NCBI GenBank assembly: GCA_008632985.1
Contig: QPGO01000302.1
Location: 1 to 64,000, forward strand
Direction of reading: 5' to 3'
Length of the DNA: 64,000 nucleotides
From: Psammoneis japonica
Taxonomy: Eukaryota
Every line of letters begins with the position of its first letter. Within the stretch, counting starts at the first letter, position 1. The position numbers were made by a program, and so were the translations under genes. Below are positions 7,946 through 52,470 of this stretch, piece by piece. The notes under the pieces were generated by a model. It did not search any database, had not been told where the DNA came from, and saw nothing but the letters and a program-made list of their open reading frames with translations.

Positions 7946-8022
7946 AGCAATCAGCAAGACATAAAAATAAATGCCGATAGCTACAATAGCAGCGCGCTCA
8001 CGGGATGATGCTGAAAACATAG

Positions 8023-15960: not shown

Positions 15961-16002
<42 letters not shown>

Positions 16003-28869: not shown

Positions 28870-29444
28870 TGTTGGACGAAAGCTTTTCATCCCGTTGGAG
28901 TATGACCATCGCTGTAGCGGTTCCCACCACCACTCGCCAAAGTCTTCTCTTAGAGAGCAGGGCTCTGCCATTGCGCATCTCAGTCTCCGCCATCTCCCCA
29001 CTCCCTCAGTGCCTCACCATCGACCATCGCTTCGTTCCCGGAACACTCTCTTGTTTTGTGTTTTGTGAATGTTTTGCCATGTTTTGCGATAAAATTTTTG
29101 CTTGACGGTCGATGCATGGACGGCCGGGACGTTACAAGTCCGTCCGCGTCCCGTCCGTCGCGCGTGCTCTTTGACGCGAGATCGCGCATGGACAGAAAAT
29201 GGAAAAAAGTGGACAGAAAAAAATTTCTGTCCATTTCCGTTGGGCACGATCGCGCATGGACAGAGTTTCTGTTGCCATGCTGACAACAAGCCACTTTGCA
29301 ACTTTTCTCCTTTCTATTGGGATGTCTTGAGGAGCAACATGACAAAACACAGCAAGCACGACTGCCAGGGTTCAATGGTTGGGAATGCTCGTTGTTCTTG
29401 TTTTGAGTGGCTGCACCTCTTTCACACCTCTTGTGTGCGCAGGT
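28870..29444. mobile_element. Left part of an older TpA-depleted element interrupted by the Copia, with clustered short repeats
   Basis: GATCGCGCATGGACAGA at 29180 and 29248; TGGACAGAAA...TTTCTGTCCA hairpin at 29210-29233; sequence resumes after the Copia TSD at 35911. Confidence 0.5.
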
Positions 29445-30094
29445 TGACAGGATTTGAACAAGATTTTAGTTTGTCACACGTGATCATGTGTGCTCTTGGT
29501 TCCGCGCACATCGTGCGATGCAGCTTGCTTTCGAGCCACCGGCGCTCACAAGAGCAATGACAGCAGACGGGTTCCAGCCCCGGGTGGGGCTCCGTGTGAC
29601 ATTGGGCCCGCAGAATTCTGCGTGCGAGCTTCGTGGCAAATTTGTGCTGCAATGAAAATGCAAATGATCGCCAACAGAAAAAGAGGCAATTTTACGAATG
29701 CATCTCCTCCTCCATGCTTGAAGCACATCATTTTGACAGTTTGCCCGGGTGTGCTCTTCAGACATTGAAGAACACACCCAGTGCATTTTCATTCTCACAA
29801 GTGTTGAAAACAGAAAGCCTTTGGCTTTGCAAAACAGGGAGCATGAAACAATTTCGTAGAATGCAACATGTGGAAATCTGCGTGCGCGACATGCGATGCG
29901 ATCCAAAAAACTGTTGATGTCACAGTGCAGCAGTGCGAGGCCCCACCTGGAGCTGGAACGTGCCAGCAGTGCCGACATCACGACGCCAGCCTTTCGGCTC
30001 CTGCGGCGGTCTCTGCATGGAGACTCATCTGCAGTTTAGACAGCAGCAAGGAGTTGTTGTTTTCTTCCACCCCAGTCATCTTCATTTTCTGTCA
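29445..30094 (+). repeat. 5' LTR (247 bp plus a MITE insertion)
   Basis: Colinear with 35664-35910 once 29567-29969 is removed. Confidence 0.93.
29567..29963. mobile_element. MITE copy 1 (~397 bp) inserted in the 5' LTR
   Basis: TIRs ACGGGTTCCAGCCCCGGGTGGGG / CCCCACCTGGAGCTGGAACGTGC; CAGCAG duplicated on both sides and single in the 3' LTR (empty site). Confidence 0.92.
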
Positions 30095-32405
30095 GATTGA
30101 CAGTCTCGCCAACAGCACCAGAATTTTGCTGAAAGCCGGGGACCCGAAGTGATCCATGACAGTGTTGGCCATGGTCTCCACAGTTTGGCAGCGGCATTCA
30201 GCAAAATTCTGATGCTGTTGGTGAGGCTCGCTTTGCCAACTAGAGATGAAGAGAGGGCGTGAAGGATGCCAAGAACCTTGTTGCTGATCTCAACTTGAGC
30301 ATGGTCGCTGATGAGCTTGGGCAGGGCACCGCGATTGTGAATGCTGTCTTCGAGGGTGTTGACAAATTCTTTGTCAGTTTTGGTGCCATGCACATCAGTG
30401 ACGAGAGATTCCATGCCAACAAAGAGCTGGGCGCTGGTGCAACCAGAGTCAACAGCAGGGGTGTCGGAGCACACCGTGTTGGTGGCAACGGGTTCATTGC
30501 GTTGGTGGACATTGAGAGCCGGGTTGGGTGACTTGCGCACCTTTTTCAGGTGCGTGCTGGCTGGCATGCAGGCACACTGCGTCATGCAGTCAAAAGTGCG
30601 GCAAACAGTGTCCTTTAGGAGAAAGCCAAAACAAGGGCGGAGGGACTCAAAGTCATGATCCTTGGGATTGAGTTCGTGCTCATGGCGTGCGTAGAAGAAA
30701 TCAGATGTTGGGAGCAGGTGATCATCAAGGACGGAGTCTGCTGCATGGCATTGTTGAAGACATGGCAGTGATGACAGTTGCCGAACTCATCAAAGAGGTT
30801 GGAAGTCGGGTCATCCTGGAGGTTAGACACAGCATCACACCATGTCTCATCATCGGCGAACTGGTGGTCAAGGACAGATGGATCCCATGTGTCATCACCA
30901 GCGAGAATGACATGCGGCAGAGTGTCCCATTCGGCGTCAGTGTGTGGGCGTGTGGCGATGCATGGAAGGCCGGCTTCAATGTTGATGGGAATGACGCATC
31001 CATCAACAGTGGTGATGCGCTGCAGACCATTGGGGACCTTGACGACCAATCATTGACATCATGTTTGCACCACTCAAGCTGGCCACAAGAGTGCATCGTC
31101 TTCCCCTTTCCAGTGTGGGCATGCTGGTGAAGGATGGCAATGGCAGGGCTGCGTTGCGTGTGGATGACACCACCGGCAGTGACAACAGGAATGTCGACTG
31201 GTTGATGATCGTCGACACCTTGGACGTCAACCTGGCAACCAGTGCGGGCAATGACACAAACATCATCACCTGCGACACCACCGTTTGCACCATGATCCAC
31301 AAGAGCACCTTTGTGAGTTGACTTGTGGGTTGAGGCAGAGCAGACAACATTGTGGTTGTTGACGCGATGGCATTTATGACCGTTAAGCTCAATGTCAGTG
31401 TTGGCAGTGCAGAAGGACACAGATCCATTGGATTTCTCGTCGGAGTGGACAGAAGGTGTAGATCGGGGGGTTTCTCACCAGAGCGGGCGGAGGGGGGGGG
31501 GGGGGGGTGTTCAGGTGCCAGGAGGCATTGCAAGTTGCTGGGTGGTGAAGGCTTGCACCGTGTGAGATGGGCCAGGATGGGGTTGGCATCAGCCGTGTTG
31601 GTGGCAGCATCAGATGGTGTGAGTTCTGATGCAAGATCATGGGTGTTGGCGGACAAGTTGATGTCGCCATCACTGCCAAGATGGAGGTTGTGCAGGTTGA
31701 CCATCGTCAAGTCATGGCAGTTGCCGGTGTGGGCATTGCACGAGCCAAGGATGACAGCCTTGGTGGAATGGGGCAAGGTGTCCCAAATGCACTGATGGTC
31801 CAGCGGAATGCAACGCCATTGTTCCCTGGTGAGGGAGTTGCCGTGGGTCTGTGCAGCACAAGCTTGGATGACGTCAACATCGCTGTTGATGTTGAAGAAC
31901 ACATCATCGTCAGGGTCGTCGGGGGCCAGGTCATGTTCGCAGATGGCACGGCACGGAGCATGAGGAGCCATCTTGGGGGTGAATGTGCTGTTGCACTGTG
32001 CTGTGGCAGAAAGCAGGAGTCCACAGCACTCTTCACAAGAGAGGCCCTTTCCATTCTGCGTGCGGAACTGATCGGCCTGATTCTTCACTGAACAGAGTTC
32101 TTTGACAGGGTGAATGGCGTTCTCAAGCATGACACATTTCTGGCCAGCAGAGAAATGGTCCACACCCGGGACAAGAGCTTCACACTTGTGGAGCTGGTCC
32201 TGCCAGTGAAGTGCGAAGGCATGGGTGGATCCTTTCCAGGTGCCATCACCGAGGCGAACAGTGGTGAGGTGCGTGAGAAGGGTCGAGGACTCCAGGGATG
32301 CACGAGCAGAAGCAAGGGTGCACTTGGAGAGGTCACGACAACCACTTGAGCATCAGAGGAGCCGACATGTTGACAAACAAGTGCCTTGCCTTTGTCATTC
32401 TGCAA
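30095..32405 (-). pseudogene. Inverted gag-protease-integrase segment of the Copia
   Basis: Minus-strand QNDKGKALV..DAQ (gag), LVDHGANGGVAGDDV (protease), RNEPVATNTVCSDTPAVDSG...KLISD (integrase), while LTRs and RT are on the + strand. Confidence 0.88.
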
Positions 32406-32409
32406 GATC

Positions 32410-35400
32410 CGTTCGAGTGCAGCTGAGCCGCTGCCAAACTGTGAAGACCATGGCCAACACTGTCATGGATTGCTTTGGGTCCCCGGCTTGCACCTGGCTG
32501 CTCGCCCTGATGTGCGTGTGCTTTCTGCTCAACCACATGGCGTCTGCCAAGCTCCACTGGCGTGCCCCCCACCGAGGTGCCATCCGGCTCTGCTCCCAAC
32601 ATCAGCCCGCTCCTCCGCTTTCAATGGTGGGAGCCCGTGTGCTGCCACCTGGATGATTCTGACTGGCCGTCTGAGTCCCGTGAATCACGCGGTCACTTTG
32701 TTGGCATCACTGAACACGTTGGTCACCAAATGACATTCAAGATTCTTTCTGATGACACTCAGAAGATTCTCTGCCGTTCCAACGTGCACTCCGCCCGTGA
32801 TCCGTCTGCTCCAAACCTGCATCTTGATCCTCCTGACAAGAAATCTGCTGAACCTGTCATTAAATCCCGCCATGACTCCAAGGATTTGCCAGATTCACCA
32901 GATGGGGAGGCAATCAGGATGCCCAAAATGCCGGTCTTTGACCCCAAGGACATCATCGGATGCACCTTCCTCATGAAGCCACAAGAGGATGGACAACGCC
33001 ACAGAGCCCGCATCGTCAAAGCCGTTGAGGACCATGACTGGAAAATTGGAGACAATCCTGAACTGGTCAAGTTCATTTGCTCCGTCAACAATGACGAATG
33101 CGAGGAAGTCCCAGCCTGCAACGACATCATGCACCACATTGAGCAAGGACGAGGACACCACCCTCTGGAAGTTCCAAAGCATCGCATCGCATGAAGGACC
33201 ATTGCGACCCCATGATCCCTCTTGGAAAGGCTCAAGCTGCAACGTCATGCTTGAATGGGAGAATGGGGAGATCACGTCCGAACCCCTTGCCATCATTGCC
33301 AAGGATGACCCTGTCACCTGTGCCATCCATGCGCGTGAGGACGGCCTTCTAGAAACCGAAGGATGGAGACGTTTTTGCAAGACAGCCCTCCGTCAGAAGA
33401 AGCTGTTCCGCATGGCCAACCAAGCCAAGTCACGCTCCTTTTGCACTGCTCCACGACACAAGTGCGGGTGTGAAGTGCCGCAGGACTGCAAGCATGCCAT
33501 GGCCCTTGATGAGCGTAACGGCAACCGCAAGTGGGGGGACGCAACGGACCTTGAGATGACTCAGCTTGGTGAGTGCGAGGTCTTCCACGACTGCGGACAC
33601 TACAAGGATTCCAGTGCTCCATCAGGACACAAGAAGATCCAGGTGCATCAGACGCTGCGACATCAAACATGACAGATGGCACAAAGCAAGGCTTGTTGCC
33701 AATGGACACCTCACAGACGTGCCCATCGACAGTGTCCATTCCGGAGTGGCATCTCTCTGTGGCCTGCGAACGACGATCTTCCTGACCGAACTCAGTGAAC
33801 TGGTGACCCATGCAGAAACAGGGAACAAGTGCTTAAACCACAGAGACAGAGATTTTCTGTGTGTGTAAAAATTGTGAGATTGTTTTAGTTAGAGTGCAAA
33901 TGCGTGATGGTGTCTTTTTCCAAGAAACAAGAATTCTTGTTGTGTGACAAGTCATTGGAAAGACTCAATCACAAGTCTTTTGTAACACTCATTGACACTC
34001 ATGCGGAGCCAATTTGCAGGCTCATGCTTGGTGCTGCACACATCCTGCGCAGACCCTTCGTGCGAGGTGAGTCATTTGCGCGATGGCCAGTCGCGCCGGT
34101 CTCAGTCGCATGGGTCACTCCTGCAGCCTGTTGCAGGTCTCGCACTGGGAGTCGTGTTTTCTGCAACACGCTTCTGCGGGATCAGCGTCGCTGCAGACAG
34201 CCTGCAGATGCAGGAAAGTGGCATCATTGGCGGCCATGGCAGGGATGCCCACTGCATTGAGTTAGAGACCTGGGCCACTGACATTCGGAATGCCTGTCTC
34301 GAAGCTGCGACCAAGGAGAAACTGCACATTGCAGCAGGCCCCGAGTTCAGCAAGCTGGAGGGACACATCCTTGTCATCCACAAGGCCTTGTGCGGACTCC
34401 ACAGCTCTGGCCTCAGATGGCATGAATGCTTTGCCAATTGCTTGCATGCTGAAGGCTTCTTCCCATGCAAAGCCGAACCCGACATCTGGCTGCGCAGGAA
34501 TGGTGACCACTGCAAATGCGTGGCAGTGCATGTGGACGACCTGGCCTTTGCCATGAAGGACCCCCAGGCTTTTGCAGACACCCTCATGGAGAAATGCAAG
34601 TTCAAACTCAAGGGCACCAGACCGTTGGAGTTCCATCTTGGTTGCGACTTCACCCGTGACCCAGACGGCACCCTGTGCCTTGCTCCCCACAAGTGCATTG
34701 AGTGCATGGTTGACAACTGCGCACACCTCTTTGGGGAGAAGCCCCGCACTGATGTGCTTTCACCCCTTGACAAAGGTGACCACCCTGAGCTCGACACCTC
34801 CGAGTTACTCAAACCGGAGGGCATCCACCAATTCCAATCCTTGATTGGATCCCTGCAATGGGCCGCATCTCTGGGTTGCATTGACGCCACTGCAGCTGTC
34901 ATGTCCCTGTCTGGCTTCCATGCAGCGCCCCGCCAAGGCCACCTGGACCATGCCAAACGCATCTGCGGATTCCTCTCCAAGATGCATCATGGTGCCCTCC
35001 AAGTGTGCACCAAGGAGCCCGACCATTCGGACCTCCCTAAACCCGTGCATGACTGGGCTCAATCTGTGTGTGGGGAGGTAGAAGAGCTGCTCCCGCAAGA
35101 TGCACCCGAGCCACTTGGCAAGTTCGTCACCGCCACACACTGCGTTGATGCGAACTTGTTCCATTGCATGCTCACTGGATGCTCTGTCACCGGCATCCTC
35201 CATTTCCCAACAAGTTTCGGCTGATTGGTTCTCTAAGAAACAAGCAACAGTTGAGACTGCTGCACATGGATCCGAGTTTGTTGCTGCAAGGACATGCGTT
35301 GAGCAGATCATTGACCTGCGCATCACTTTGCAACACCTTGGCATCCCCATTTGTTAAAAATTGCCTCATGTTTGGGGACAACAAGTTGGTTGTGGACAGT

Positions 35401-35660
35401 GCTGCCATCCCTCACTCCAAGTTACACAAGTGACACACCGCCCTCTCATTCCACCGTGTGCGTGAGGCGATTGCCTCCGGTGGCCTCAAGTTTCATTTCA
35501 TCGAAGGCTCCCACAACCCAGCTGACATCCTCAGCAAGCATTGGGGTTGCTCCCAAGTCTGGAGCCTCCTTCATCCTCCAATGTTTTGGAACTTTGATCC
35601 TGAGGCTTTCAACCAATCTGACCTTGAATCTGTCGCTGTTGACCCCTCAAGCAAACTGGG
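32410..35660 (+). pseudogene. Copia integrase C-terminus, RT and RNase H pseudogene
   Basis: PNISPLLRFQWWEPV, EWENGEITSEPL, HKARLVANGH, TDIRNACLEA, KALCGLHSSG, VAVHVDDL, WFSKKQATVETAAHGSEF, NPADILSKHW; frameshifts and stops. Confidence 0.93.
33800..34257. mobile_element. ~450-bp non-coding insertion interrupting the Copia RT
   Basis: RT reading IFLTELSEL stops at ~33803 and resumes as ELETWATD at ~34259; weakly inverted ends; exact termini uncertain. Confidence 0.65.
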
Positions 35661-35663
35661 GAG

Positions 35664-35910
35664 TGACAGGATTTGAACAAGATTTTTGTTCATCACACAC
35701 AATCATGTGTGCTCTTAGTTCCGTGCACATCACGCGATGCAGTTTGCTTTCGAGCCACCAGCTCACAAGAATGATGACAGCAGTGCCGACATCATGACAC
35801 CAGTCTTTTGGCTCCTGTGGCGGTCTCTGCACGGAGACTCATCTGCTGTTTAGACAGCAGCAAGGAGTTGTTGTTTTTTCTTCCACCCCTGTCATCTTCA
35901 TTTTCTGTCA
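35664..35910 (+). repeat. 3' LTR
   Basis: TGACAG...CTGTCA, preceded by the PPT and followed by the TSD. Confidence 0.95.
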
Positions 35911-36310
35911 CAGGTCATCCTGCAGCCAACAATGAAGTGTGGCATTGAAAAGATTGCAGCAACATGTTGTGCCATGGCCCTGGCGCATCAAACAAAACAA
36001 AGCGAGGTTGTGCAATGCTCATCCTCAACATGGGGCAGAAATGACAGCATGGCCTTTCACTGTCCACCCTCACTGCGGCCCACAAATTGCATCAGACAAA
36101 ATTGACTCCCTTTAGATTCCCACAAGCAGTGCACCACCAATCCAAAGGAAGTGCACACAGGGAGTGTCAAACAATTTTTGAAGCAAGTTGGGAAGATTGG
36201 CAATCTTTTCTGGCCGCTTCTTGAGAAACAAACCCATTTGGCCAGGGTCAGGGCATGCTTGTCTGAGCAGGATTGACAACTGTTGCTCCTCTCTTCTCAA
36301 CTTGGATCTC

Positions 36311-36546
36311 GCACATCATTTTTTACTTGGCCAGGTGTGCTCTTCAGACATTGAAGAATGCACCCAGTGCACTTGTGTTCTTGCAATTTTGTCAAATGAA
36401 GTGTCTGGGGTTTCACAAAACAATGAGCATGGAATTTCTTTTGGAAGACCACACGTAGAAATGTGCACCCGAAACACATGACGGATGACAAAAAAATGAT
36501 TGTCATGTGTCAGCACTGTGAGCTCCCACCCAGGGCTGGAGCGTGT
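36311..36546. mobile_element. MITE copy 3, right half only
   Basis: CACATCATTTTTTACTTGGCCAG...CTTCAGACATTGAAGAA...GAGCTCCCACCCAGGGCTGGAGCGTGT aligns with copies 1 and 2. Confidence 0.85.
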
Positions 36547-37537
36547 TGCCAACCGCACATTGTCTCAGCCGTCTGGGTGTCTGAACATCTGGGCATGCCA
36601 TCACAGGCATGACACCAGGCACCTCCACCTGGCCAGACCAAAAGCTGTTCCTGACCCTGGAACACATGCCCCCATTGTTCACAGGGGCACCTGCAACGGC
36701 CTCTGCCCAGAACCTTGTCTGCTGCACAGACAGCAGCAAGGTGTTGTGCACTGGGTCCAGGCTGGAGCTCTGCTTGTGGTGTCCACCTGATGTCACCAAC
36801 ACTTGAGTGATGGAAACAGAGCAAGGATGACTGGCTCTTGTTCAAACTCTGTCAGGTTGACAGTCTTGATGACCCTCATCAATGCAACAAGCTCTCATTG
36901 AGCAACAAGAACATCCCAAGGACACAAGTGCACAAGTGGTGGCTGGGGTCAATTCTTTGGTCCATTTGACAGCAACCCCAGAAGCCACTCAAGAGAAATG
37001 GAAGAGCAACATTTGCAGTGTCAGGTTGGTGGGGAGTGAGGACAAAAATCAAAGAAGAGCTGGATTTTGGCAGCCAACCTTCAAAATGAACAAGGAAACA
37101 GTGAATGGCAATGGCGATAAATTGGCAGCACAAATGCCAACAGATCACTGCATTCCTCAGTCAGGGAATGGAAATCTGTCAGTGACAACAGCAAATTCTG
37201 GCACGAATTCCAAAGCGGGCTTGGGCTCAAGTCTTGCCAACCATGTGTCTCAGTCATCTGGGTGTCCAAACATCTGAGCATGCTGTCACAGGCATGAGAC
37301 CAGGCACCTCCACCTGGCCAGACCAAGAACTGCTCCTGACCCTGGAGTGCATGTCCCTGTCATTCATGGGGGCACCTGCAATGGTCTCTGCATGGAGACT
37401 TGTTTGCCACGCAGACAGCAGCAAGGTGCTGCACTGGGTCTGGGCCAGAGCTCTGCTTGCTGTGTCCACCTGATGTCATCAATGCTTGAATGATGGAGAC
37501 AGAGCAAGGATGACTGGCTCTTGCTCAAATTCTGTCA
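36547..37537 (+). mobile_element. Pair of ~305-bp LTR-like direct repeats (36547-36854, 37235-37537) with a 380-bp spacer
   Basis: Both start TGCCAACC and end CTGTCA; they share the (GGTCTCTGCATGGAGACT)...GACAGCAGCAAGG core with the Copia LTR; the first is followed by GGTTGACAGTCT, like GATTGACAGTCT after the Copia 5' LTR. Confidence 0.8.
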
Positions 37538-37799
37538 TGTCCTTCCCATGCACCCCCCCCCCCCCCCATGACTGTGGTGCAGCACACACAACGGCGTGCA
37601 ATTGTGAATGTGCAAACTTCTTTTTGTGTGACAATGCATGTTGTGCTTGCCTCCCCAGCTGCATGTTGAAGTCATTTGTCAAATGGCATGACATGACAGA
37701 TGTTCATGGCATCAACAACATTGCCATGTTTGATTTGCTCTGTGCAGCTGGTGGTGCGCACAGTTGTTGTTGTTTCATGTGGCCCAACACAGGGCTGCT

Positions 37800-40700
37800 C
37801 TAATTTTTTTTACAGTCTTTCTCAAGCAACTTTTTTTTCACTCTGCATGTGCACAGAGTGTGTGGAGTGTTCTCTTGAGCACTGTTCTCATTTGCAATCT
37901 CTTGTGTTTGTTTCTGGACAAACTTCCAGCCAGTGATGTTTCAAGTGTCAACCTTGTGTCTCTGATGAAGACAAGTTGTCCTGGCGCAGCTTGCACAGCA
38001 GTGCAATGTGCAGAATGCCCCACAAAAGCTGCTGCTGACAGCACTCCATCAAATGGACTCTCTGCATTCAGAGGTGCATTTTGTGAATCAAATGTGTGCA
38101 GCACATTGCAGGGCACTTGATGCATGTGCTCTGTCACAGTGTTTGCCTGTGGATTTTGTGTGGCTGTGGGCTTGAATTTAGTGCCGCAGTTATCTTGAAC
38201 CACAACCTGGAGTTGCTGTCTGCAGAAGTGTGTGTGAGATCGCTGAGGCCACATGTCTTGATGGCAGTTGATCACACTGATGAAACATCAAAGTTCTTTT
38301 TGAGTTGCAGGAGCTGCAGCTGCTTGGGTTGCCTCTACTTTCTTGGGCATTGGTCTGGCACCATTGTGTGAGATGCAAAAGCCCAGAGAGTCTGCTTTGG
38401 GCTTGGCAAAGAAGGACATTTTGGTGTTGACCTTTTGGCTGGCTTGATCCAGTCGCACAAGAGCTGCTTCAAACTTCTTTAGATGACATGAGAAGTCACC
38501 CTCAGCAAGGCACAGTGTGTCATCAAGAACACAGGCTCAGGCTCTGACAAACTCCAGACCTGCCATGAGCTCAGCACTCATGTGTTCTTGAAAATTGCCT
38601 GGAGCTCCACAAATTCCAATGGGGAGTTTGCAGCATTCACACTTCTTGCCCCATGGCATCATGATCTTGCACAAGCACCAAGCATGTGGCATCAGCTTGA
38701 TGTGACAGTGTCCCATGCTTAAATCTCAAATTGAGCAATGCTGCACACATCAAAAACTTCCAGCTTCTGTGGCACATCCTAAATCTTGGGCAAGGGATTC
38801 AGAGCACACATTGCCTGCTTGCTCAGCTCACAAAAGTTGGGCAGGAACCAAGCTTGACCGTTTGTCTCATGTTGAATGAGAAAGGCTGGAGCTGCCTGCT
38901 CAGAATGACTCATTTTTCTTGGGACTCCCATCTCACAGTGTCATTTGACTTCCTTTGAAGTGGCCCACGCCAAGGCTTGTGGAGCAGGAAATGGCTTCAC
39001 ATCATGTGAGATTGTTCCCAACTTCAATGTGAGGCCTGCTGATTTCCCAGTTCATTTGCCCAGAGAGCCATCAAAAAGATTCTCAAAACTTTTTAAGAGG
39101 AAGTTCAGTTGCTTCTGCTCCTCTGGGGCCAGATGCATTGCTGCAGCAGCTGCCTCATTGAGGTCAGCAACATGACAGTCAGAGCCCACGATCCTGTCAA
39201 TCCTGTCATTGAGGCCATTCATGGTGCAAGACTCTTCAATGTGATTGGCAATCAGCTTGAACACTTTGGGATCAAGAAGTGCATCAATGTTTTTCTCTGG
39301 GGCAGCCACATTTTCCCACTTGACATCTTTGCTCACAAAGTCCAGTGTGGCTCCAAGACTGCTCATCAGATTGCATCCCATGATCACATCATGTTGACTT
39401 GCAGAAGCAGCAGTGTCCTTGTCAACATGTGCTGTCTTCTCAACAAGCCCATGCTGTCAGCCACAAAGAGCCCACCTCTTTGGCACCCCAAAGCTCAGCT
39501 GCAGATTCCTTGGTTCTCTCCATTTCCATGTGAATTTGTGCAAAATCATGGTTGACAATGTTCTGCTGTCAAGGTGGATGTGCAGGAGGCTTGTTTTTGG
39601 CTTTCCCCAAGGAGGCATTCTCACAAGCAATGACTGCTGGACTTGCATGTGTTGCTTTTGCCTTTTTCTCAGGCTTTCTGACATCCAGCAATGTGCCTGA
39701 CTCCTTGACAGGTGCCAGTCATTCCTCAGAATTGTCATGAGTCATTTTTTCAATTTGACAGTTGTCCTGACCAAGGGTGTCAGAGTCTGAATCTTTGGCT
39801 TGATGTTTCTTGTCCTTTGCCAGGGAGCTCATCTTGAGGGTTTTCTGAATTGCTTGAGCAACCACAGTTCTCATCTCTTCTTTTTGAGAGACATTTTTTG
39901 CATCACCATGAGACTGCATGCAATTGCCATTTGAATGTTGCCTTTTTGGCTCTCATTCAAAGTTCTCACAGTGTTCCTTTGCCAGTCTTTTAACAACCCA
40001 GCACTTGCACACACATCATGAGTGGTCTTTTTGCAACAGCTGGACCACCAATTGGACTCAGAACATTTGGCGCCAGATTGGCAGCCATTTTTGGGATCAT
40101 GATGGGATTGGTCTTTGGCTTTGAACCCAGGCTTGTTGCCAGCATCACCCTTGACATGAATCTGGTCAAATGTGTCCTCTCTGCAACCTCCAGACACTCC
40201 AAAAACTCTGCCAGCTTGTAAAAGGTGTGATTGAGAATTTCGAGACCTTGAAGAGTGGGCTGACAGCAAAGCTCAGATTCTGGTTTGACTTGAAGGGAGG
40301 ATGGCACTTGAAGTCTTCACTCACTTCTTGGGCCCAAGCTTCAATTTGGCAGATCTTCACAGAGTCTGGCTTCTTCAGATTGCTTTGCAGACAGCACCCC
40401 TGACTTTGGAATGCATTCTTTGGGAGCGTGCAATCACAGAGGTGATGTGGGCAGTTTTTGAAGGCTCCATCATCATCTTTGGAGTCAACATTCCCCACCT
40501 CATTCTCAAAAACTTTGAGAGCATCTCCCTGCAACAATGCACGCACCTTGCAAAACTTGTCAGCCTGCTCTTGGATGTTTTGTCCAAGAGCTGGGACCTT
40601 CTTGCAGTTCTTGAGGAATTCAATGTGCTTGGGAGCTCCCTGCTTGTTGCAGCACTTGGCATCAACAGCCATGTGCAGGTCTTCTTGTCTCCGGGATGAA

Positions 40701-41300
40701 AGCACTGCTCCATTTTGAGGCACTGACTTGGTTTTTGAGTGTTTTTGGCTCAGAAATCAATTCCAGCAGCACAGGTGCAATTTTTCCCTGCTTGGTGGAA
40801 GACTTGATGCTGGCTGCATGAGATGAAAGCTTCTTTTTTTTTGTTTTTGCCTTCTGTGGTGTGTGTGCACAGGGCGCTGTGCTCAAAGAATGAGTGCAAA
40901 ACAAATGAAGGTGTTTTTGGCTCAGGAATCAATTCCAGCAGCACAGGTGCAATTTTTTCCTGCTTGGTGAAAGACTTGATGCTGGCTGCATGAGATGAAA
41001 GCTTCATTTTTGTGTTTTTGCCTTCTGTGGTGTGTGCGCACACTGCGCTGTGCTCAAAGAATGAGTGCAAAACAAATGAAGGCAGAGTGAATTGCAAAAA
41101 GTGGAAAATCACAAGATTGAATTTTGTTCTGTGATTTTGGGTTTCTCCGAAAGAGCCCCAATGTCCTGGAATGTTCTTTGCACTGCTTCTTCAGACAAAA
41201 AGCCTTGCAGAGAATCTGGTTGTGACAACAATCTGGTTGTGACAATGTTTGGATTGTCTCGGTGCATGACTGATGTTGACAACTTGTGTGCATCAACATT
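37800..41300 (-). mobile_element. Ty3/Gypsy retrotransposon remnant (gag-protease-RT-integrase, deleted and degenerate)
   Basis: Integrase KPTATQNPQAN..EHMHQV...QAAPGQLVF (37.9-38.2 kb); RT LSMGHCHIKL...PWGK.CECCKLPIG (38.55-38.75 kb); protease MIMGCNLMSSLG (39.4 kb); gag-like LLQGDAL (40.5 kb); Gypsy domain order. Confidence 0.85.
40739..41082. repeat. Tandem duplication, two ~172-bp units
   Basis: GTGTTTTTGGCTCAG...GCAAAACAAATGAAG starts at 40739 and again at 40911. Confidence 0.92.
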
Positions 41301-41499
41301 GCCTGTTGATTTAATTTGCATTTTGAGCATTCAATCAGAGGATCTCAGCAGCCAGTCTGACCTTCTTGCAAGAACTTCTTGCACATCCGCAATTGTGGTG
41401 CAATTGACATGTGTGGCAATGCACAGTTTTGAGTGTGCTTGTTTCTTTCTGTGGAGCAATGCATGTTGCAAGCAAAAGCCCTGATCTGCAATCTTCCCA

Positions 41500-44400
41500 A
41501 ACTCTCTGACTGCAAAACACTGGCAGCAGGGCCATGCAGAGGGCCTCTGCCAGGGGCCACCTTTTTCCATCTCATGCAATGCACAAAAATTGTGCACCAC
41601 CAGCCAAAGCCTTCCATGACAATGTCAAGCAATTTTTTGTGCCAACACACTTTCCTGCAGCACGGCACCTGTTGGCACTGACCACAATGACTTTGGCCCA
41701 TCAGGCAACATCATTTCTGGTGCCTGCCATTGAGTGTGTGCTGTTGCTGGTGTTGCACCACAGCAACTCATGTCATTTTTCAGCACACCTGCAGTGGCTG
41801 TCACAGGTGCTGTCCCCAGCAACAATGCCATTGATGCTGATGCTGCTGTTGTTGCAAAAACCATTGCTCTCAGCTGCACCACAGGCATGGCAGGTGATGC
41901 CATTGCTGTGGCAATCAAGTCCAAAATGCACCCAAGCCAAAGTGCTGAAAATTTTGCACTTTTCTTTCTCGTGCTCTGTTGCCTGTTGCCCCCCACAGGT
42001 GCTGTGACAAGTGCCAATGCTGTCAATGAAGTTGACAATGCTGCAACACCATTGCTGTCAATCACAACAGCCCTGACATGGCAGGTGGTGCCATTCACAT
42101 GGCTGTTGATTGGGTTGCTGTCTCTGGTGCAAGCCTGCACTTGCTCTCACTGTGTGATGATGTGGTTGGATTTGTCACTTCAAAAGGACAACAACAAAAA
42201 CAAGAGCAGCAGTGCTGCAGCTTGTGCATTTCTGCTCAAATGAGCCCCTGCACTTTTGCTGCATGCAGCAAGAACCCATTGTGAGCATTGGGCCTTGCAA
42301 AAACTCTTGACTTGGCACACAAGCATGGGCCAAAGACAGAAGGTGGTGGCCTTTCAAAAGGCATTGCCAAAATGACAGGACAGTCTTCAAGGTTGTTCTT
42401 TGACCAGCACCATTGCCAGAAGAGAGTGTGGTTGATGTTTCTTTTGAAGAAAAACATCTGCGTGTGCATTGACGCTGTGAAGTCCTGTTGCCAAATGTGT
42501 GTTGCTGGCTGCCACCTGGTTGCCAATCCTTGTGCACAAACATGGCTTCCATCTTTCCAAAGTTGGGGCATGTGGCCAGCTCAAAAACACTCATGACATG
42601 GCATGTGGTTTCTTTTGCTTTCAGGGATGCAGCTCAATCATGAGCTGCCCCACCTTCCACATCTGCCTTGACATGGCCCATGCCACAGCCCCCATGACAG
42701 ACATGACAAAAGGCTTTTTCATCAATCTTGCTGTCTTGGGCCACCCATTGCTTGTGGACTTTGCCAATGCCACACGTGCACTTTTTTCCATGATGTCAAG
42801 TGACGCAACAACATGGCATCTTTTTAAAATCCCAAAAGCAAAGAATGGTGGGTAGAAACATCTGCCAAATGACTTTCATCTGCAAAAATCAAAAAACAGG
42901 TGTGAGTTGCCACTGACAAACACAGCAGCAGCATGGTCCAATGGGGTGAATGCATCAGGAGAATGGGCAGCGGTGTTGTTGGCTGCCAGTGGAAGGCATG
43001 GGGCCACAGATGGCAGTGGCATCAGCACTTGTGGGAGGAACTGCAGTGTGAGAAAAAAAGTGTGAGTTGGCATCATTTGACGGTCATTTTGCCATTGGAA
43101 AAAGGACAAAAATGTGTTGAATAACACCAGCTGCACCAAGGGCAGGAGAATCAGTGTCATGTGCACTGGTGGCAAGACACCCAGGGATGGCATTGCTGCA
43201 AGTGGCACTGCCTGAGGAAGGCAGTGGGGCATGAAGACAACAAAACCAAAACCCAATTTCTGTGTTCAAAGGTGCTGCTGTGCTTCTACCCTGCAGCTGA
43301 ACCTTGGTTTCATGAGCAGATGTTGCATTCTGATGAAGCTCATTGCAGCATGCAAGAAGTTTATGAGTCACAGAACAGCATTGGTTGGTGTCATCTGTTC
43401 AATGGCAGATTCCATTTTGTGGAGTGAAGCTCAATTGTGACACTTGGCAGACAGCGGGCATTGCAGCCATGAGGAAAAATGCAAACATTTGGGTTGGTGG
43501 TTGGCAATGACTTTGGCATGTGTTTTGTCTTGATGGTGGGAACTGTGAGATTCCCACAACAATGCAGCTCATGGTCATGACTCCCAAACTTGCAAGTCAT
43601 CTCAACACTGTGACACAGAAGCAGAAGTCAAGGCCATCTGCTCCAGAGTTGATGACCACCTGGAGCAAGGCAAAAGGCAGATTTGTTTGGCCTTGTTGAT
43701 GGACACTTGATGCACTTGACTCACCACGTGCACAATCAGCCAGCAAGCTGTGGTTTGTCCCACATTTAAGCCAAGCATCTGTGAGGTAAAAGGTTCATCT
43801 GCAAGAGGTGCTTGCACCATTGCACAAGTTGTTTTGGTGCCACACCACCACCTTCTGGTGGTGCTGATCCAGGCCAGTTGCCATGCACTCATCCTGTCGC
43901 ACTTTGTGCATGCTGGGAGTGTGGGTTGGCTTGTTGCCAGAGCTGCAGGTTGGAACAAGTGCAGCAGCACCTTTGAGTGCAGAGCTGGGGTTGTGTTTTT
44001 GTGAGTTGCTGGTGCAGTGCAGCAATTGATGTGGATCACATCAACTCTTGCATCTTTGGCGCATGCTTGGAGATGAGCCTCTCATCATCTCCTGTTGCAG
44101 TCAGTTGGGTTGCTGGAGCATTTGAGGATTCAGAAGTTGGGCCTGCAACCAATCTTGTTCTGGTCATGATCCTGGTGCCAGCAGCACTCTCTTGCACTTG
44201 CACCCGGTGCAGGTTTGGGCAAAAAGTGTGAACAGTGTGCTTGGGTGTTCCACAACCATTGCATGCACACTTTTTCTTTTCTTGCAATTTTGGCACTTTG
44301 CAGTTGCCCACAAGTTTAAACACCATGGTGCAGAAGGTGGCACATGCTCTCAACCCCCATCTTGCTCTGTCTGATGTTTGAAGCAACCAAGATCAAGCAG

Positions 44401-45250
44401 CCATGTTGGACTGGTTGCCTTGTGCTGGCCTGGCTGGGTTGGATGCTTGAAAGATCAAGTCTGGAAAGGCCAGATGCACCAGCATTTGGCCCTCCTTTCT
44501 GTCAGACTTTTTTCCTGCTCAGTGACCCAGTGCAGGATTGTTCCTCTCCCCATTGTCTGAGGCCCCTGTCAGATTGTCATCCAAGGTTGGTGAGCCACTT
44601 TGTCAAAGTCAGGAATTTGCTTTCCTTGTTGCATCATCAGCAGCTGACAGGGAGGGTGGTGAATGACTGGCGCACTTCTATCAACAAGTGTGGTTGCTCC
44701 AACAGTTGTCATTGGGGCCATTTGAATGTGCCAAGTTTCCCATTGGCTCAAGTTCATGCCTGCACTGATGGCCAAGAAAGCACTGTGTTCTCCAACAAGG
44801 ACAAGCAGGTGGCAGCACCCCCCGCTGGGATCACCGCCAGCTTGTTGTGTGCTTCATTGTTTTCCACAATCAATGCTTGTGGTTTCTTGCTCTCTTGTTC
44901 ATGGCAGTGGCAGCCACCACAAAGATTTTTGCACACACACCCAGAAAAAGCTCTCATTTTGCCAACTTGTTGTCACCACCCATGCACCACAGGTTGACCT
45001 TGGTGGCTGGACTTGCACACTCTTCTTTTCTGTGCTTGCAGATGAGCCTGCTTCTTTGCAGGTGCTTCAGGCACTCCTTGATGGGCCAACAAGTGGCCTT
45101 GCCAAGCCAAGCAACCAAGCTTGCACAGCTTTTGTTGGTTGGGGAAACTGTCTGGCACGCACATGTGAGGAGCACATGTGCAACGTCACCTGGTGGCACA
45201 GGAGAAGGGACAGATGCAGAGCAGGGATGGAGCTGAGTCATGTGGGCAGG
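41500..45250. mobile_element. Highly degenerate TpA- and CpG-depleted repeat sequence, class not recognised
   Basis: TG/CA-saturated composition, continuous with the flanking TE remnants. Confidence 0.5.
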
Positions 45251-45700
45251 GTGTGGGGTGGGATTGGGGTTGGGGTCAGCAAGCTGGGGCTGCAGTTTGG
45301 TGGAGCGACAGGTGAGTTGGTCAGCAAGCAATTTGGTTGTTGTTGCAAAGCTGGGGCTTTTTGGAGGCCCCGTGGTGATGGAGTTGAGGTGTGGTGGGTC
45401 AAGCCGAATCATGATGAAGCAGCAGATGTGGACCGTTGTGCACAGGTGCATGCAACATGGGTGGCGGGGTGTTGGAAGGAGGATTCGGCATTCCAGGGAG
45501 GTGGTGGTGGGGCAGGGACGGGGCATTGTTGATCAGCTCCGAAAAGGAGGTGGTGTGCGAAGCAGCCGGGGGCTCCGAAGTGATCGATGGCAAAAGGGAT
45601 GAGGCAGATGCCAGCGTTGTTGAGGGTGGATGTGAGGGTGGTGTTGTGTTGGGTTTCGTGTGTTCCGTTGAACTTCCGTTTGGTGCTCGCATGGTGTGCC
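45250..45700 (-). mobile_element. Possible C-terminal restriction-like endonuclease region of an RLE (CRE-like) non-LTR retrotransposon
   Basis: KRKFNG...LIPFAIDHFGAPGCFAHHLLFG resembles the K..K(Y)...FxPxxxExxGxxG tail of RLE domains; motif resemblance only. Confidence 0.45.
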
Positions 45701-45934
45701 TCGGTGTACCGTGCCGTAAGGGCTGAGAGTGGGGGCTTTGTTTTTTCCGCCTGCCCTGTTTGCGCGCGAAAATGTTCGCAGCCGCACGACGAGCGACGCG
45801 CTCGAGCACCGTGAACAACACGGGGCATCCAACAACCGAAGCACAAGCTGGAAGCACAAGAAGACCTTACTGTATTTGAGCCGCCGGTCTTCCTTTGGCT
45901 GTGAGAGAGACCCTAGAGAGAGAGAAAGAAGAAC

Positions 45935-50049: not shown

Positions 50050-52470
50050 TGTACGGCGCGAAAATGCACGCAGACGCGCAAGATTGCCAACGTCTTATGT
50101 GTGATGGGCTACTGTGCTTCAAAGGAACGTTGGGATCGTGCGTGGCGTGCGCATCGCACTGTGGTTGCGGTTGAGAATCCCCATGGGATTCCCGGCCACC
50201 GCCTCAGCGGATCAGCACCTCGATGACGTGCAACAGTGATCCACAGCACTGGATCTAAGGTGTGTGATAAACAGCAGTAGTTGCACCGTAGAAGCAGCAG
50301 CTGACAGGAACCCGGACATGCGAGTCTGAAGGTCTGTGCAGCAATGCAGCCTGGACAAAATGGAGGACATCCGGCACTGTGCCGAGAACAAACGTCACTT
50401 CACCCATTCCACCAGGCGGAGGAGCAACATACCCCGCAACCAACCCCCAGTGCTGGGCATGCTCAGCAGCAACCTCGAGACGCTCCTCTTCCTTCCGAGT
50501 GGGGGGGGCGGGGTGCCGCGGCGATCCCTTGACACAACGCCACAAGTTGGTCGTTCGTCATGCCGCCATTGTTGCCAACACCGCCAACTGCCAACAGACG
50601 ATCCGAGATGTCGAAACCATCAAAATCCGCAGCGTCATCCATCTTGCTCGCATCAAACAAAGGGCTGCCCTTCGTGACCGAGCGCTCGTCGTTGTTTGCT
50701 GCAATGCATTGCATGCCACGCTTCCATGCAGCTCCCAGTGGGAAATCCGCACCCAACTCCGGAGTGGGCTCATCCACAGGAATGCCACTGGGGAAAGTCT
50801 TGCCTGGTGGCAAAGGCAGGAACAGCTTCAGAACAGAGATCTGAGGGTGGTCTTCCGCAGCCGCAGGTGGAGGGAAATGCAGACGCCCCACAGGTGCAAC
50901 CCAGTCATCCTCCGGTGGAGTTGTTGGGCCGTCAACAGTGTCCGGCGCCTGATTGCGAAGTCATTGAAGCTTGAAAGGAGTTGAGAGCGACAGAGACTGG
51001 GGTGTGACTCCCAATCTCGTCCGACAAGCTCCCAATGACAGAGGTGGTCCCTTCCGTCGAAGCAAACACTTGAGGGCGGGTGAGAATCATGATCCACTTT
51101 GAGCAAACAAAGGCAAACTGGGTTGCTTTCATTGGATTGGATGTGACAGTGTGGCGAACCTCATGGTTCACACCCGGTCGAAGCGTCGAAGCCAGTGCCA
51201 TTGCATTCTCGTCTGAGAACGGAAACGCTGTTGTGTGGTGCTGGTCAGCAGCACCACGACCCTGCTGGACAGCAGCGGCGGAAGGAGCAAACACAGTCAT
51301 TGAACAATGACTTCACAGACTCAGTGTAAATGGCTGACTTCGGAAATTGTGAGGAGCCACTCCCATGGGTTCCGGCCGTGAACTCTGCAGGTGGAGCATC
51401 CTGTCCACAACTTTGTGGTGTTTGATTCAGATTTTCAAAATTTTCAATGGCTGCAAACAATGTGAACCGTGAACCCTGCATGACGGTTGCTCTCAAGCAG
51501 GCACCACTGGGGCTTGGAGGACCCATCATGCTCCGTGCCTGCATCGAAACATTCGTGGCTCGGACAGACATGTTGTGTGGTCGAGCGCTGAGCATGCAGG
51601 ACCAGCAGTTGAACAACCAGCAAGAAACAGAGATGCCATTCTCAAGAGGCACACACACATGAACATGTTCACAATCCCACACTCGACGCGTTCCAGATGC
51701 AGGTGGGAATCCGTGTGACATTGGGCCCGCAGACTTCTGCGTGCGAGCTCCGCAGTAAAATCACACGGTGATTAAAATGTCAATGATCGCCAACAGAAAA
51801 TGAGGCAATTTTGCGAATGCACAAACTCGCACATGATTGAAGTACATCATTTTTTACTTGGCCAGTTACATTCTTCAGACATTGAAGAATGTAACTGGCG
51901 CATCATTGTTTCTATAAATTTGTCACACAAAACGTCTGGGGAACAGCGAGTCTGGACAATTTTTTTAAAATGTCACACGTAGAAATCTACGTGCAAAACA
52001 TACGACGGATGATAAAAATCATTGTTGTCACACGTCAGCACTGCGAGCTCCCACCTGGGGCTGGAACGCGTCACTCGCACCAGCGAGGGGGTCAACCATG
52101 GCCGACAGCATGCGGCCATTTCCCGCCGGCGAGGGTGTGACCCACACACGCCGAGCGGTTGTCAAGAAAGTGGCTTTTGGTTGCATAGAGGAGACCATCC
52201 TCTCAGTGTCAGGCATTGCCGCATTGGCACAGTAAAAAAGAGGGGGATGGAGACAACGACTGTTCATGAGTCGGTTCCGGAATCCCAGTCAAATTGCTCT
52301 GTCATGAGCGCAGAATTTGATGGAGTGAACATGTGGGACACCTGTGTCACTCCCCGATCCTTAGCAATCATCAACAGAGTGTTAATTTTGCAATGAGACA
52401 TGGTCGCTGCAGTGGACCATGGTTGCACCCCTCTGATGCTGACTGCCAAGGGAACAATGCGTGGATTGGT
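50050..52470. mobile_element. TpA-depleted, CpG-retaining repeat island with a decayed - strand ORF; class unknown
   Basis: Very few TA outside the nested MITE; stacked pseudo-ORFs; lies between normal genes. Confidence 0.55.
51686..52071. mobile_element. MITE copy 2 (386 bp), the least mutated copy
   Basis: Perfect terminal ACGCGTTCCAG / CTGGAACGCGT; CACTCG duplicated at 51680-51685 and 52072-52077. Confidence 0.95.

What the first reader, a model, noticed from the sequence alone, without database searches (positions are those of the whole stretch)
34259..35350. Tyrosine-free reverse transcriptase: Tyr became both Cys and His, so the change is strand-symmetric
Seen: the 410-aa ORF 33992-35224 contains no Tyr. 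Conserved Copia positions read NACLEA (TGT 34295; expected NAYL), LCGL (TGC 34391; expected LYGL), HVDD (CAT 34529; expected catalytic YVDD), KCKFKLKG, THCVDANL and AHGSEF (CAT 35265; expected YGSEF). The Gypsy RT shows the same pattern (MGHCHI for MGYYHI). TAY->TGY is A->G on the sense strand and TAY->CAY is A->G on the antisense strand. This fixes the ancestor as TA rather than CG. Inference: ADAR-type editing of element RNA before reverse transcription would be strand-biased, so this happened on double-stranded DNA. It inactivates elements by missense change rather than by creating stops.
Basis: partly seen in the sequence, partly recalled or inferred. Interest (0 to 1): 0.85.

Follow-up and report, generated by a model that had tools for sequence, protein, structure and literature searches.

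The report
TpA-erasing hypermutation of diatom transposons
A dead copia-type retrotransposon in a diatom-like genome has lost every tyrosine codon because nearly all TA dinucleotides in the surrounding transposon nest were converted to TG or CA, a repeat-restricted DNA mutation pattern that my searches did not find described.

Summary
The 410-aa ORF 33992-35224 has no Tyr. At 32 Tyr columns conserved in intact relatives, three copia pieces in the window read Cys 22, His 7, Phe 2, Trp 1 and Tyr 0, while other residues are 88% kept.

The cause is regional. In 29133-46128 and three smaller blocks, TpA O/E is about 0.06 against 0.60 in host genes. CpG is partly lost, TpG and CpA rise to 1.75, and the other twelve dinucleotides are unchanged. 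A gypsy RT, a fragment of an unknown protein family and copies of a 388-bp TIR element show the same loss. Eighty intact relatives have normal TA. Contigs of a public DNA run reproduce the TA-free sequence at single-copy depth.

TA loss is bimodal and outruns CpG decay. It is near strand-symmetric overall and prefers T-A-Y.

Best reading: a RIP-like process on integrated DNA converts TpA to TpG/CpA, most likely by adenine deamination. The enzyme is unknown. Ten literature searches found no description.

The parts
29133..46128 (.). 17-kb nest of transposable elements almost free of TpA: 62 TA where about 693 are expected at host density. TG 1933, CA 1807, CG 387.
29445..35910 (+). Copia A, a dead Ty1/copia (CoDi-like) element. 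It is flanked by a perfect 5-bp target-site duplication CAGGT (29440-29444 and 35911-35915).
29445..30094 (+). 5' LTR of Copia A (TG..CA ends), interrupted by the insertion at 29566-29964.
35664..35910 (+). 3' LTR of Copia A. It is 86-92% identical to the 5' LTR, and 97-97.5% identical when transitions are ignored.
29566..29964 (+). c29, a TA-depleted copy of a ~390-bp TIR element (MITE-like) inserted into the 5' LTR, with a 4-bp TSD AGCA.
30113..32423 (-). Inverted internal segment of Copia A (gag-protease-integrase, about residues 234-1044 of relatives). Tyr columns read 4 Cys and 1 His.
32429..35634 (+). Integrase C-terminus, RT and RNase H remains of Copia A in three frames. It contains the Tyr-free ORF 33992-35224 of the finding.
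34529..34531 (+). CAT (His) at the catalytic Tyr of YVDD.
37868..38725 (-). Gypsy/Ty3 RT fragment and integrase fragment with an internal deletion. Tyr is replaced by His or Cys, and there are many TGA stops.
7057..7957 (-). Copia B, a fragment of a second copia element inside TA-depleted block 6280-7726. Six of 6 Tyr columns read 4 Cys and 2 His.
51685..52072 (+). c51, an unmutated copy of the TIR element. It has 24-nt TIRs (88% complementary), TSD ACTC, 13 TA and 25 CG.
36311..36546 (+). c36, a 5'-truncated, TA- and CG-depleted copy of the TIR element.
36543..37540 (+). LTR-like direct repeat pair (36543-36857 and 37231-37540). Identity is 82.6% in the normal alphabet and 97% in a purine/pyrimidine alphabet, with 12 TG/CA doublets.
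50430..51756 (-). Block that is TA-free but still CpG-rich. It holds the N-terminal ~260 residues (51291 to 50595) of a ~760-aa protein family with no Pfam domain. The one conserved Tyr column reads TGC.
15213..16440 (.). Small TA-depleted block of unknown content (4 TA, 135 TG, 135 CA).

Best explanation
The Tyr-free RT is a side effect of a transposon-restricted hypermutation acting on integrated double-stranded DNA in a diatom-like genome. Within TE-occupied blocks almost every TpA becomes TpG or CpA, which is an A:T->G:C transition at one of the two A:T pairs of the palindromic dinucleotide. The site is then no longer a target, so TA never becomes CG. Ordinary CpG->TpG/CpA decay runs alongside but more slowly. 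The TpA process appears fast and close to all-or-none, like RIP in fungi, and it prefers an A followed by a pyrimidine (TAC > TAT > TAR). Tyr codons (TAY) are therefore wiped out, mostly to Cys. TAA and TAG stops also vanish, which produces spurious long ORFs on both strands. Shown: the pattern, its restriction to TE blocks, its independence in different copies, and its occurrence in an element with terminal inverted repeats. Inferred: that the chemical step is enzymatic deamination of adenine in DNA (A to hypoxanthine, read as G), perhaps by a TadA/ADAT-like deaminase, whose U-A-C preference I recall and did not test, and that the process works as a genome defence.
For: (1) Specificity. Only TA (O/E 0.06 against 0.60 in host genes) and CG (0.37 against 0.99) fall, and only TG/CA rise (1.75 against 1.14). 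AA, AG, AT and the rest are unchanged, and the mass balance fits (212 predicted against 218 observed TG+CA per kb).
(2) Ancestral TA. Tyr is kept in 0 of 32 conserved columns. Eighty intact relatives have TA O/E with median 0.66 and minimum 0.47, even those with CG O/E of 0.2. Paralogs still read TAC at 35142.
(3) Not an artefact. Single-copy-depth (~63x) contigs of a public DNA run match 37.5-47 kb almost perfectly: 2887 bp with 4 differences, 1429 bp with 0.
(4) DNA level and independent per copy. Seven repeat pairs contain 37 TG/CA doublets and no TA/CG doublet. At the 13 TA sites of the unmutated TIR-element copy c51, c29 and c36 read CA 10 times, TG 8 times and TA 3 times, with discordant outcomes at some sites. 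Copia A's LTRs come from a single insertion (TSD CAGGT). They are 97% identical when transitions are ignored but 86-92% otherwise.
(5) Speed. 500-bp windows are bimodal: 69 have TA O/E below 0.1, few lie between 0.1 and 0.3, and the main mode is 0.5-0.6. TA-free windows span CG O/E from 0 to 0.8. In Copia A, 0 of 21 Tyr columns in the plus-strand RT part and 0 of 5 in the inverted part keep Tyr, against 16 of 24 Arg in the plus part and 6 of 11 in the inverted part, while the LTRs differ at only 7 of 258 non-YR positions.
(6) Context. Residual TAs are YTAR in 31 of 62 cases (host 20%) and RTAY in 2 of 62 (host 28%), chi-square p = 3e-9. Cys codons are TGC 15 and TGT 7; His codons are CAT 6 and CAC 1 (Fisher p = 0.026). 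In my own site-by-site reading of the listing, 11 of 13 discriminating c51 sites follow the rule (binomial p). Thr and Ile (ACN, ATH after a T) are lost more than Asn and Lys (p = 0.013).
(7) Near symmetry overall. Coding-strand gains are TG +25/kb and CA +20/kb. Paralog differences are A>G 338 against T>C 332 and C>T 406 against G>A 423.
Against: No whole genome is held. No enzyme could be sought, and the pattern rests on one 64-kb window plus one coded sequencing study that may be the assembly's own sample. At a palindromic TpA the primary lesion cannot be told apart: A->G on one strand equals T->C on the other. Post-integration timing is not proven for most TA sites. The 3 TG/CA doublets between Copia A's LTRs could derive from CpG, and one doublet in the inversion duplicate does come from an Arg CGC. 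Only one TA/TG difference separates the LTRs. The two copies of the inversion-junction duplicate share TGC at a conserved Tyr, so that change may predate the rearrangement. The TIR element could be an unusual solo LTR rather than a MITE, since no TE library was available. One TIR-element copy (c51) is unmutated, so being repeated is not sufficient. The preceding-base prediction of the flank rule was not seen at Tyr codons (R: 9 Cys/4 His; Y: 8 Cys/3 His). The trinucleotide comparison with relatives was confounded by composition.
Confidence: 0.72

Rival explanations
1. The process is at DNA level, but the primary event is on thymine. TEs carry an enzymatic thymine modification at TpA (5-hydroxymethyluracil, 5-formyluracil or a J-like base made by a TET/JBP dioxygenase), and the modified T mispairs with G or is misrepaired. 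The result is T->C on either strand.
For: TpA is palindromic, so T->C and A->G cannot be told apart in the sequence. In dinoflagellates 5hmU preferentially replaces T in TA and TC dinucleotides, is enriched on repeats, and helps to silence TEs (passages of PMC11572971). The loss coincides with CpG-decayed blocks, which are presumably methylated and silenced.
Against: I recall 5hmU as pairing normally with A and as only weakly mutagenic, whereas the loss here outruns methyl-CpG decay. TC is not depleted: TC O/E is 0.99 in blocks and 1.15 in host genes, and no matching CC gain was assessed. Base-resolution mapping in Breviolum found no motif (figure legend of PMC11071213). No evidence that diatoms have 5hmU was seen.
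Confidence: 0.18
2. Editing before integration. Element RNA and/or single-stranded cDNA is deaminated at UA/TA during each retrotransposition cycle (ADAR-like or APOBEC-like logic), and the edited copies then integrate.
For: The copia family is very abundant. Summed depth reaches 65,680 against about 63 for single-copy sequence. Its copies differ mainly by transitions: 1499 transition places against 319 transversion places. Differences between copies alone cannot separate per-cycle editing from decay in place. The duplicated inversion junction shares TGC at a Tyr site. Tyr codons are biased towards A->G on the sense strand, 22:7.
Against: Both TG and CA outcomes occur in every element. LTRs of one insertion differ by transitions at YR sites, including one TA/TG difference. 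TIR-element copies, which have no RT step, are mutated. An unrelated protein fragment and non-coding spacers are TA-free. TAG is poorly targeted, whereas ADAR as I recall it favours UAG. I also recall ADARs as confined to animals.
Confidence: 0.07
3. There was no hypermutation. The TA-free state is an assembly or base-calling artefact at modified bases, or it is the native composition of these elements.
For: Long-read base-callers are known (recalled) to miscall modified bases in fixed motifs. The one DNA study that holds the region may be the assembly's own sample.
Against: k-mer contigs of a DNA run reproduce the block at the same depth as the adjacent unique DNA and without bubbles: 2887 bp with 4 differences, 1429 bp with 0. 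Strand-discordant miscalls would also produce CG and TA, but CG is depleted and no TA/CG doublets occur. Catalytic and invariant Tyr are replaced, and 80 relatives have normal TA.
Confidence: 0.03

Closest known systems
Repeat-induced point mutation (RIP) of ascomycete fungi
   Same: Both are restricted to transposons and repeats. Both are near-saturating, dinucleotide-specific transitions on both strands of genomic DNA, independent in each copy, bimodal in composition, and inactivating for elements.
   Different: The direction and the target are opposite. RIP makes TpA from CpA (C:G->T:A), lowers GC and creates stops. Here TpA is destroyed (A:T->G:C), GC rises, and TAA/TAG stops and Tyr codons vanish. 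The host is a diatom-like stramenopile. Cytosine-methyltransferase-like chemistry cannot produce this change. Dependence on duplication and on the sexual cycle is untested.
Methyl-CpG deamination decay of silenced TEs (animals, plants, diatoms)
   Same: It is present in the same blocks, with the same TG/CA products, the same strand symmetry and the same TG/CA doublets between copies.
   Different: It cannot remove TpA. CpG-depleted copia relatives from other organisms keep TA O/E of 0.47-0.52. In this window TA loss is complete even where CG O/E is still 0.6-0.8.
ADAR- or APOBEC-edited retroelements that re-integrate (mammals; recalled, no paper read here)
   Same: Retroelements carry clustered A->G or G->A transitions.
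   Different: Those changes are confined to one strand of the element and arise before integration. Here both strands are affected, a TIR element is affected, the LTRs of one insertion differ, and the neighbour preference (T-A-Y) is different.
5-hydroxymethyluracil marking of TEs in dinoflagellates (PMC11572971, passages read)
   Same: In an alga, a modification with a stated TA/TC preference is concentrated on repeats and linked to TE silencing.
   Different: That is an epigenetic mark in a different supergroup, with no reported loss of TpA. Here fixed base substitutions are seen.
TadA/ADAT tRNA adenosine deaminases and their DNA-acting laboratory derivatives (recalled; only a search listing was seen)
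   Same: They carry out A-to-I chemistry with a U/T at -1 and, for TadA, a C at +1. This matches the order TAC > TAT > TAR found here.
   Different: The natural enzymes act on the tRNA anticodon loop. To my knowledge no natural eukaryotic enzyme of this family is known to mutate genomic DNA. No such gene could be sought here.

Membership tests
Ty1/copia LTR retrotransposon (diatom CoDi-like) | RVT_2-type reverse transcriptase with the gene order gag-PR-INT-RT-RNase H | tested here: met
   Pfam RVT_2, E = 2e-12. 924 homologs; the best are 63% identical and include Cylindrotheca entries. tblastn with full polyproteins maps INT before RT.
Ty1/copia LTR retrotransposon (diatom CoDi-like) | Direct LTRs with TG..CA ends and a 5-bp target-site duplication | tested here: met
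   LTRs at 29445-30094 and 35664-35910; TSD CAGGT on both sides.
Ty1/copia LTR retrotransposon (diatom CoDi-like) | Intact catalytic Y-x-D-D and an open polyprotein frame (an active element) | tested here: not met
   YVDD reads HVDD. Tyr is kept in 0 of 21 conserved columns of the plus-strand RT part and 0 of 5 of the inverted part. There are frameshifts, a 380-bp insert, an inversion of 30113-32423 and one R->TGA stop.
RIP (fungal repeat-induced point mutation) | C:G->T:A transitions, mainly CpA->TpA, which raise TpA/ApT | tested here: not met
   TpA falls to O/E 0.06 and CpA/TpG rise to 1.75. The change is A:T->G:C.
RIP (fungal repeat-induced point mutation) | Acts on duplicated DNA in the genome, on both strands, independently in each copy | tested here: inconclusive
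   Copies differ by independent outcomes and the family is highly repeated. However, one 388-bp repeat copy (c51) is untouched, and dependence on duplication itself could not be tested.
RIP (fungal repeat-induced point mutation) | Premeiotic timing and dependence on RID/DIM-2 | not testable with these tools
   No genome is held and no experiments are possible.
ADAR-type RNA hyper-editing fixed by retrotransposition | A->G on the transcribed (sense) strand only | tested here: not met
   TA->CA occurs as well: 7 of 29 Tyr codons. Coding-strand gains are TG +25/kb and CA +20/kb. The TIR element reads CA 10 times and TG 8 times.
ADAR-type RNA hyper-editing fixed by retrotransposition | 3' neighbour G favoured (recalled preference) | tested here: not met
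   TAG and TAA are the best-surviving contexts. Residual over host: TAA 7.2%, TAG 5.2%, TAC 2.1%, TAT 1.4%.
Methyl-CpG decay | CG->TG/CA with no effect on other dinucleotides | tested here: not met
   CpG decay is present (Arg CGN to TGN 6 times and to CAN 6 times). It cannot account for the TA loss, which also occurs where CpG is retained.

The most novel reading that the evidence does not exclude
This diatom lineage has a genome-defence system that is the chemical mirror image of RIP. A DNA-acting adenine deaminase with T-A-Y preference, possibly derived from TadA/ADAT, is directed to transposon or heterochromatin domains and erases TpA there within a short time. It kills elements by removing all Tyr codons and leaves stop-poor, GC-enriched relics. 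That would make it, to my knowledge, the first natural eukaryotic mutator of genomic DNA that works by adenine deamination.
Probability: 0.35. Interest if true: 0.92.

Novelty: new variant of a known kind. Interest (0 to 1): 0.8.

Why it matters
Programmed or targeted hypermutation of repeats is known almost only as cytosine-based chemistry (RIP, methyl-CpG decay, APOBEC). A repeat-restricted A:T->G:C process at TpA would add a second chemistry to genome defence. It would point to a natural DNA adenine deaminase or a mutagenic thymine mark in an ecologically dominant algal group.

It also has practical consequences:
- Such relics escape Pfam. Only 1 of the ORFs from the blocks was recognised.
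- They generate long false ORFs on both strands, because 90% of the remaining stop triplets are TGA.
- They inflate LTR-divergence ages.
- They bias TE annotation in diatom genomes.

Tried and rejected
- **Whole genome.** None is held, so no search for deaminase or TET/JBP genes and no genome-wide TE statistics were possible.
- **Earlier findings.** Four look-ups gave nothing relevant.
- **Literature.** Ten searches and term look-ups in PMC2806351, bioRxiv 10.1101/2025.10.24.684338 and PMC7884421 found no description of TpA->TpG/CpA hypermutation. Supplements were not opened.
- **Pol-eta-type WA->WG mutagenesis.** Rejected, because AA and AG are unchanged.
- **GC-biased gene conversion and selection.** Rejected, because only TA is affected among the A/T-containing dinucleotides, and catalytic residues are destroyed.
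- **Strand-processive action as in RIP.** No clustering of outcomes was seen. This is my own count from the Tyr list: 8 runs of C/H outcomes against about 8.2 expected.
- **Trinucleotide comparison with relatives.** An attempt to derive outcome fractions was confounded by the family's higher GC and was not used.
- **Preceding base at Tyr codons.** It did not predict Cys against His.
- **Loose end of run X2 at 29046.** Tested as a possible unmutated allele: no transition-only relationship, dropped.
- **RNA.** No RNA holder was listed among the sequencing runs.
- **Pfam on the gypsy read-through** (TGA=X): no family.
- **Block 50430-51756.** ESM Atlas, a PDB profile search, Pfam and a cluster-name look-up did not identify the ~760-aa family, so it is not known whether this block is a TE.
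Full report
**1. What the window is**

The window is a compact eukaryotic locus. Ordinary nuclear genes (Gcd10p, peptidase M76, ubiquitin-S27a, POP1, CREG, Nup93, CCCH zinc finger, seipin, NAA35, ERO1, bHLH) fill the stretches of normal composition. The nearest named relatives of both host and element proteins are diatom proteins:
- Cylindrotheca copia RTs at about 60% identity.
- Nitzschia inconspicua seipin at 32%.
- A Thalassiosira oceanica gypsy protein.

No whole genome is held for the window.

**2. The observation**

The 410-aa ORF 33992-35224 has no Tyr. Sixty homologs average 4.7% Tyr. Its first ~89 residues are not RT; they read through a ~380-bp insert.

I mapped the whole element with 120 homologous proteins and with 45 full polyproteins translated from 80 metagenomic loci. 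Over 626 conserved columns in three copia pieces:

| Consensus residue | Kept |
|---|---|
| Tyr | 0 of 32 (22 Cys, 7 His, 2 Phe, 1 Trp) |
| Arg | 23 of 44 |
| Thr | 17 of 28 |
| Ile | 17 of 22 |
| every other residue with more than two columns | 81-100% (Met: 1 of 2) |

Fisher test, Tyr against the non-Tyr, non-Arg columns: p = 2e-27.

The gypsy RT on the minus strand at ~38.2-38.7 kb shows MGYYHI read as MGHCHI and NYYRDMW read as NCHQDMW.

**3. The cause is regional**

Per-kb dinucleotide profiles and TA-gap mapping show a 17-kb block (29133-46128) and smaller blocks (6280-7726, 15213-16440, 50430-51756).

| Dinucleotide | O/E in blocks | O/E in host genes |
|---|---|---|
| TA | 0.06 | 0.60 |
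| CG | 0.37 | 0.99 |
| TG, CA | 1.75 | 1.14 |
| other twelve | essentially unchanged | |

The TG+CA gain equals the TA+CG loss: 212 per kb predicted, 218 observed. The big block has 62 TA against about 693 expected at host density. Ninety per cent of the remaining stop triplets are TGA. This explains the many overlapping ORFs on both strands. Pfam recognised only the RVT_2 ORF in the blocks.

**4. Anatomy**

- **Copia A** spans 29445-35910. It has TG..CA LTRs and a perfect 5-bp TSD CAGGT.
- Its gag-PR-INT part (30113-32423) is inverted, with a 63-73-bp duplicated junction.
- Its 5' LTR carries a ~390-bp insertion, **c29**, with a 4-bp TSD AGCA.
- c29, **c36** (36311-36546) and **c51** (51685-52072) are copies of one element. 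c51 has 24-nt terminal inverted repeats and TSD ACTC. I read this element as MITE-like. An odd solo LTR cannot be excluded.
- **Copia B** (7057-7957, minus strand) and a **gypsy fragment** (37868-38725, minus strand) are separate elements.
- An LTR-like pair lies at 36543-36857 and 37231-37540.

**5. Not native and not an artefact**

Eighty intact relatives have TA O/E with median 0.66 and minimum 0.47. This includes relatives whose CpG has decayed to 0.2.

In the only public DNA study that holds the region, contigs at single-copy depth (~63) match 37.5-47 kb almost perfectly: 2887 bp with 4 differences and 1429 bp with none. The copia part is hugely repeated, with summed depth up to 65,680. 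Paralogs differ by 1499 transition places against 319 transversion places, distributed symmetrically (A>G 338, T>C 332, C>T 406, G>A 423). At 35142 (TGC at a Tyr column), 43% of the depth reads A.

That study may be the assembly's own sample. Even so, k-mer contigs without bubbles argue against strand-discordant miscalls at modified bases. The absence of any TA/CG doublet argues the same way.

**6. Evidence that it happened on DNA, independently in each copy**

- Seven repeat pairs contain 37 TG/CA doublets. Such adjacent double differences are expected when one YR dinucleotide decays separately in two copies.
- When transitions are ignored, the Copia A LTRs are 97-97.5% identical and the second LTR-like pair 97%. 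In the normal alphabet they are 86-92% and 82.6% identical.
- At the 13 TA sites of the unmutated TIR copy c51, c29 and c36 read CA 10 times, TG 8 times and TA 3 times. Outcomes are discordant at some sites.
- An element with TIRs and a TSD should transpose as DNA, so RNA or cDNA editing cannot explain its loss of TA.

Some caution is needed. Doublets can come from CpG, and the one in the inversion duplicate does, from an Arg CGC. Only one TA/TG difference separates the two Copia A LTRs.

**7. Kinetics**

TA O/E in 500-bp windows is bimodal: 69 windows lie below 0.1, and the main mode is 0.5-0.6. TA-free windows span CG O/E from about 0 to 0.8. Blocks 50430-51756, 29133-29600 and 45500-46128 have lost TA but keep CpG.

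In Copia A no conserved Tyr column keeps Tyr. About two-thirds of conserved Arg columns are kept in the plus-strand part (16 of 24) and 6 of 11 in the inverted part. The LTRs differ at only 7 of 258 positions outside YR dinucleotides. The TpA process is therefore much faster than methyl-CpG decay and looks episodic.

**8. Context and symmetry**

- Surviving TAs are enriched in YTAR (31 of 62 against 20% in host) and depleted in RTAY (2 of 62 against 28%); p = 3e-9.
- Tyr-derived codons are TGC 15, TGT 7, CAT 6 and CAC 1 (Fisher p = 0.026).
- By my own reading of the listing, 11 of 13 discriminating sites in the TIR family obey the rule "the A followed by a pyrimidine is the one changed" (binomial p).
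- Thr and Ile are lost more than Asn and Lys.
- The 22:7 excess of Cys over His (p = 0.008) probably reflects the TAY context and not a strand effect. It has the same sign in elements on either window strand and in the inverted segment.
- Total coding-strand gains are near equal: TG +25/kb and CA +20/kb.
- Not everything fits. The preceding base did not predict the outcome at Tyr codons.

**9. Mechanism**

Shown: a TE-restricted, TpA-specific A:T->G:C conversion of genomic DNA, running alongside CpG decay.

Inferred: the chemistry. I favour enzymatic adenine deamination. The speed and the T-A-C/T preference resemble the U-A-C target of TadA-type deaminases (recalled; only a search listing was seen).

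The main rival is a mutagenic thymine modification at TpA. In dinoflagellates 5hmU prefers TA/TC and marks silenced repeats (passages of PMC11572971).

Pre-integration editing, artefact and native composition are much less likely.

**10. Comparison and novelty**

The phenomenon behaves like RIP, but its chemistry and product are the reverse, so it fails RIP's defining feature. Ten full-text searches and three paper look-ups found no description of it. That is no proof that it is unpublished, and supplements and subscription journals were not covered. I rate it a new variant of a known kind (repeat-targeted hypermutation). There is a substantial chance that the underlying enzyme class is new.

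Noticed in passing
window 30113-32492: Copia A has an internal inversion of its gag-PR-INT part. A 63-73-bp segment is duplicated in inverted orientation at the junctions (30130-30202 against 32422-32492). That segment is 90% identical in the normal alphabet and 100% identical when transitions are ignored.
   Followed up: partly
window 51685-52072, 29566-29964, 36311-36546: A family of ~390-bp elements. c51 has 24-nt terminal inverted repeats; c51 and c29 have 4-bp target-site duplications (ACTC and AGCA); c36 is 5'-truncated. It is probably a MITE. One copy is unmutated and two are TA-depleted. An internal 17-nt perfect hairpin in c51 stays 93% complementary in the mutated copy c29, as context-determined outcomes would predict.
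   Followed up: partly
window 50430-51756 (coding remains 51291 to 50595, minus strand): This block is TA-free but still CpG-rich. It encodes the first ~260 residues of a ~760-aa protein family with a C-terminal C..C..C..H motif. The family has no Pfam domain, no PDB relative and no name, and it is unknown whether it is a TE or a host gene.
   Followed up: partly
window 33866-34246: A ~380-bp segment interrupts the RT between two HSPs whose query ranges overlap. It supplies the non-homologous N-terminus of the 410-aa ORF.
   Followed up: no
window 28448-28778 and 28001-29268 against 41000-47000: The public DNA run shows variant letters at partial depth in the host gene upstream. Summed depth there is about 111-144, against about 63 in the unique parts of the TE nest. 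The nest, or this haplotype of it, may therefore be present on one homologue only.
   Followed up: no
window 40739-41082: A tandem duplication of ~173 bp, 95% identical, lies inside the oldest, most CpG-depleted part of the nest.
   Followed up: no
window 29133-46128, both strands: Many overlapping ORFs of 100-450 aa lie on both strands (for example 31003-32163 minus and 34102-34980 minus). They are by-products of the loss of TAA and TAG and should not be called genes.
   Followed up: yes
window 15213-16440 and 63437-64000: Two further short TA-depleted stretches of unknown content lie between host genes. No protein similarity was found.
   Followed up: no
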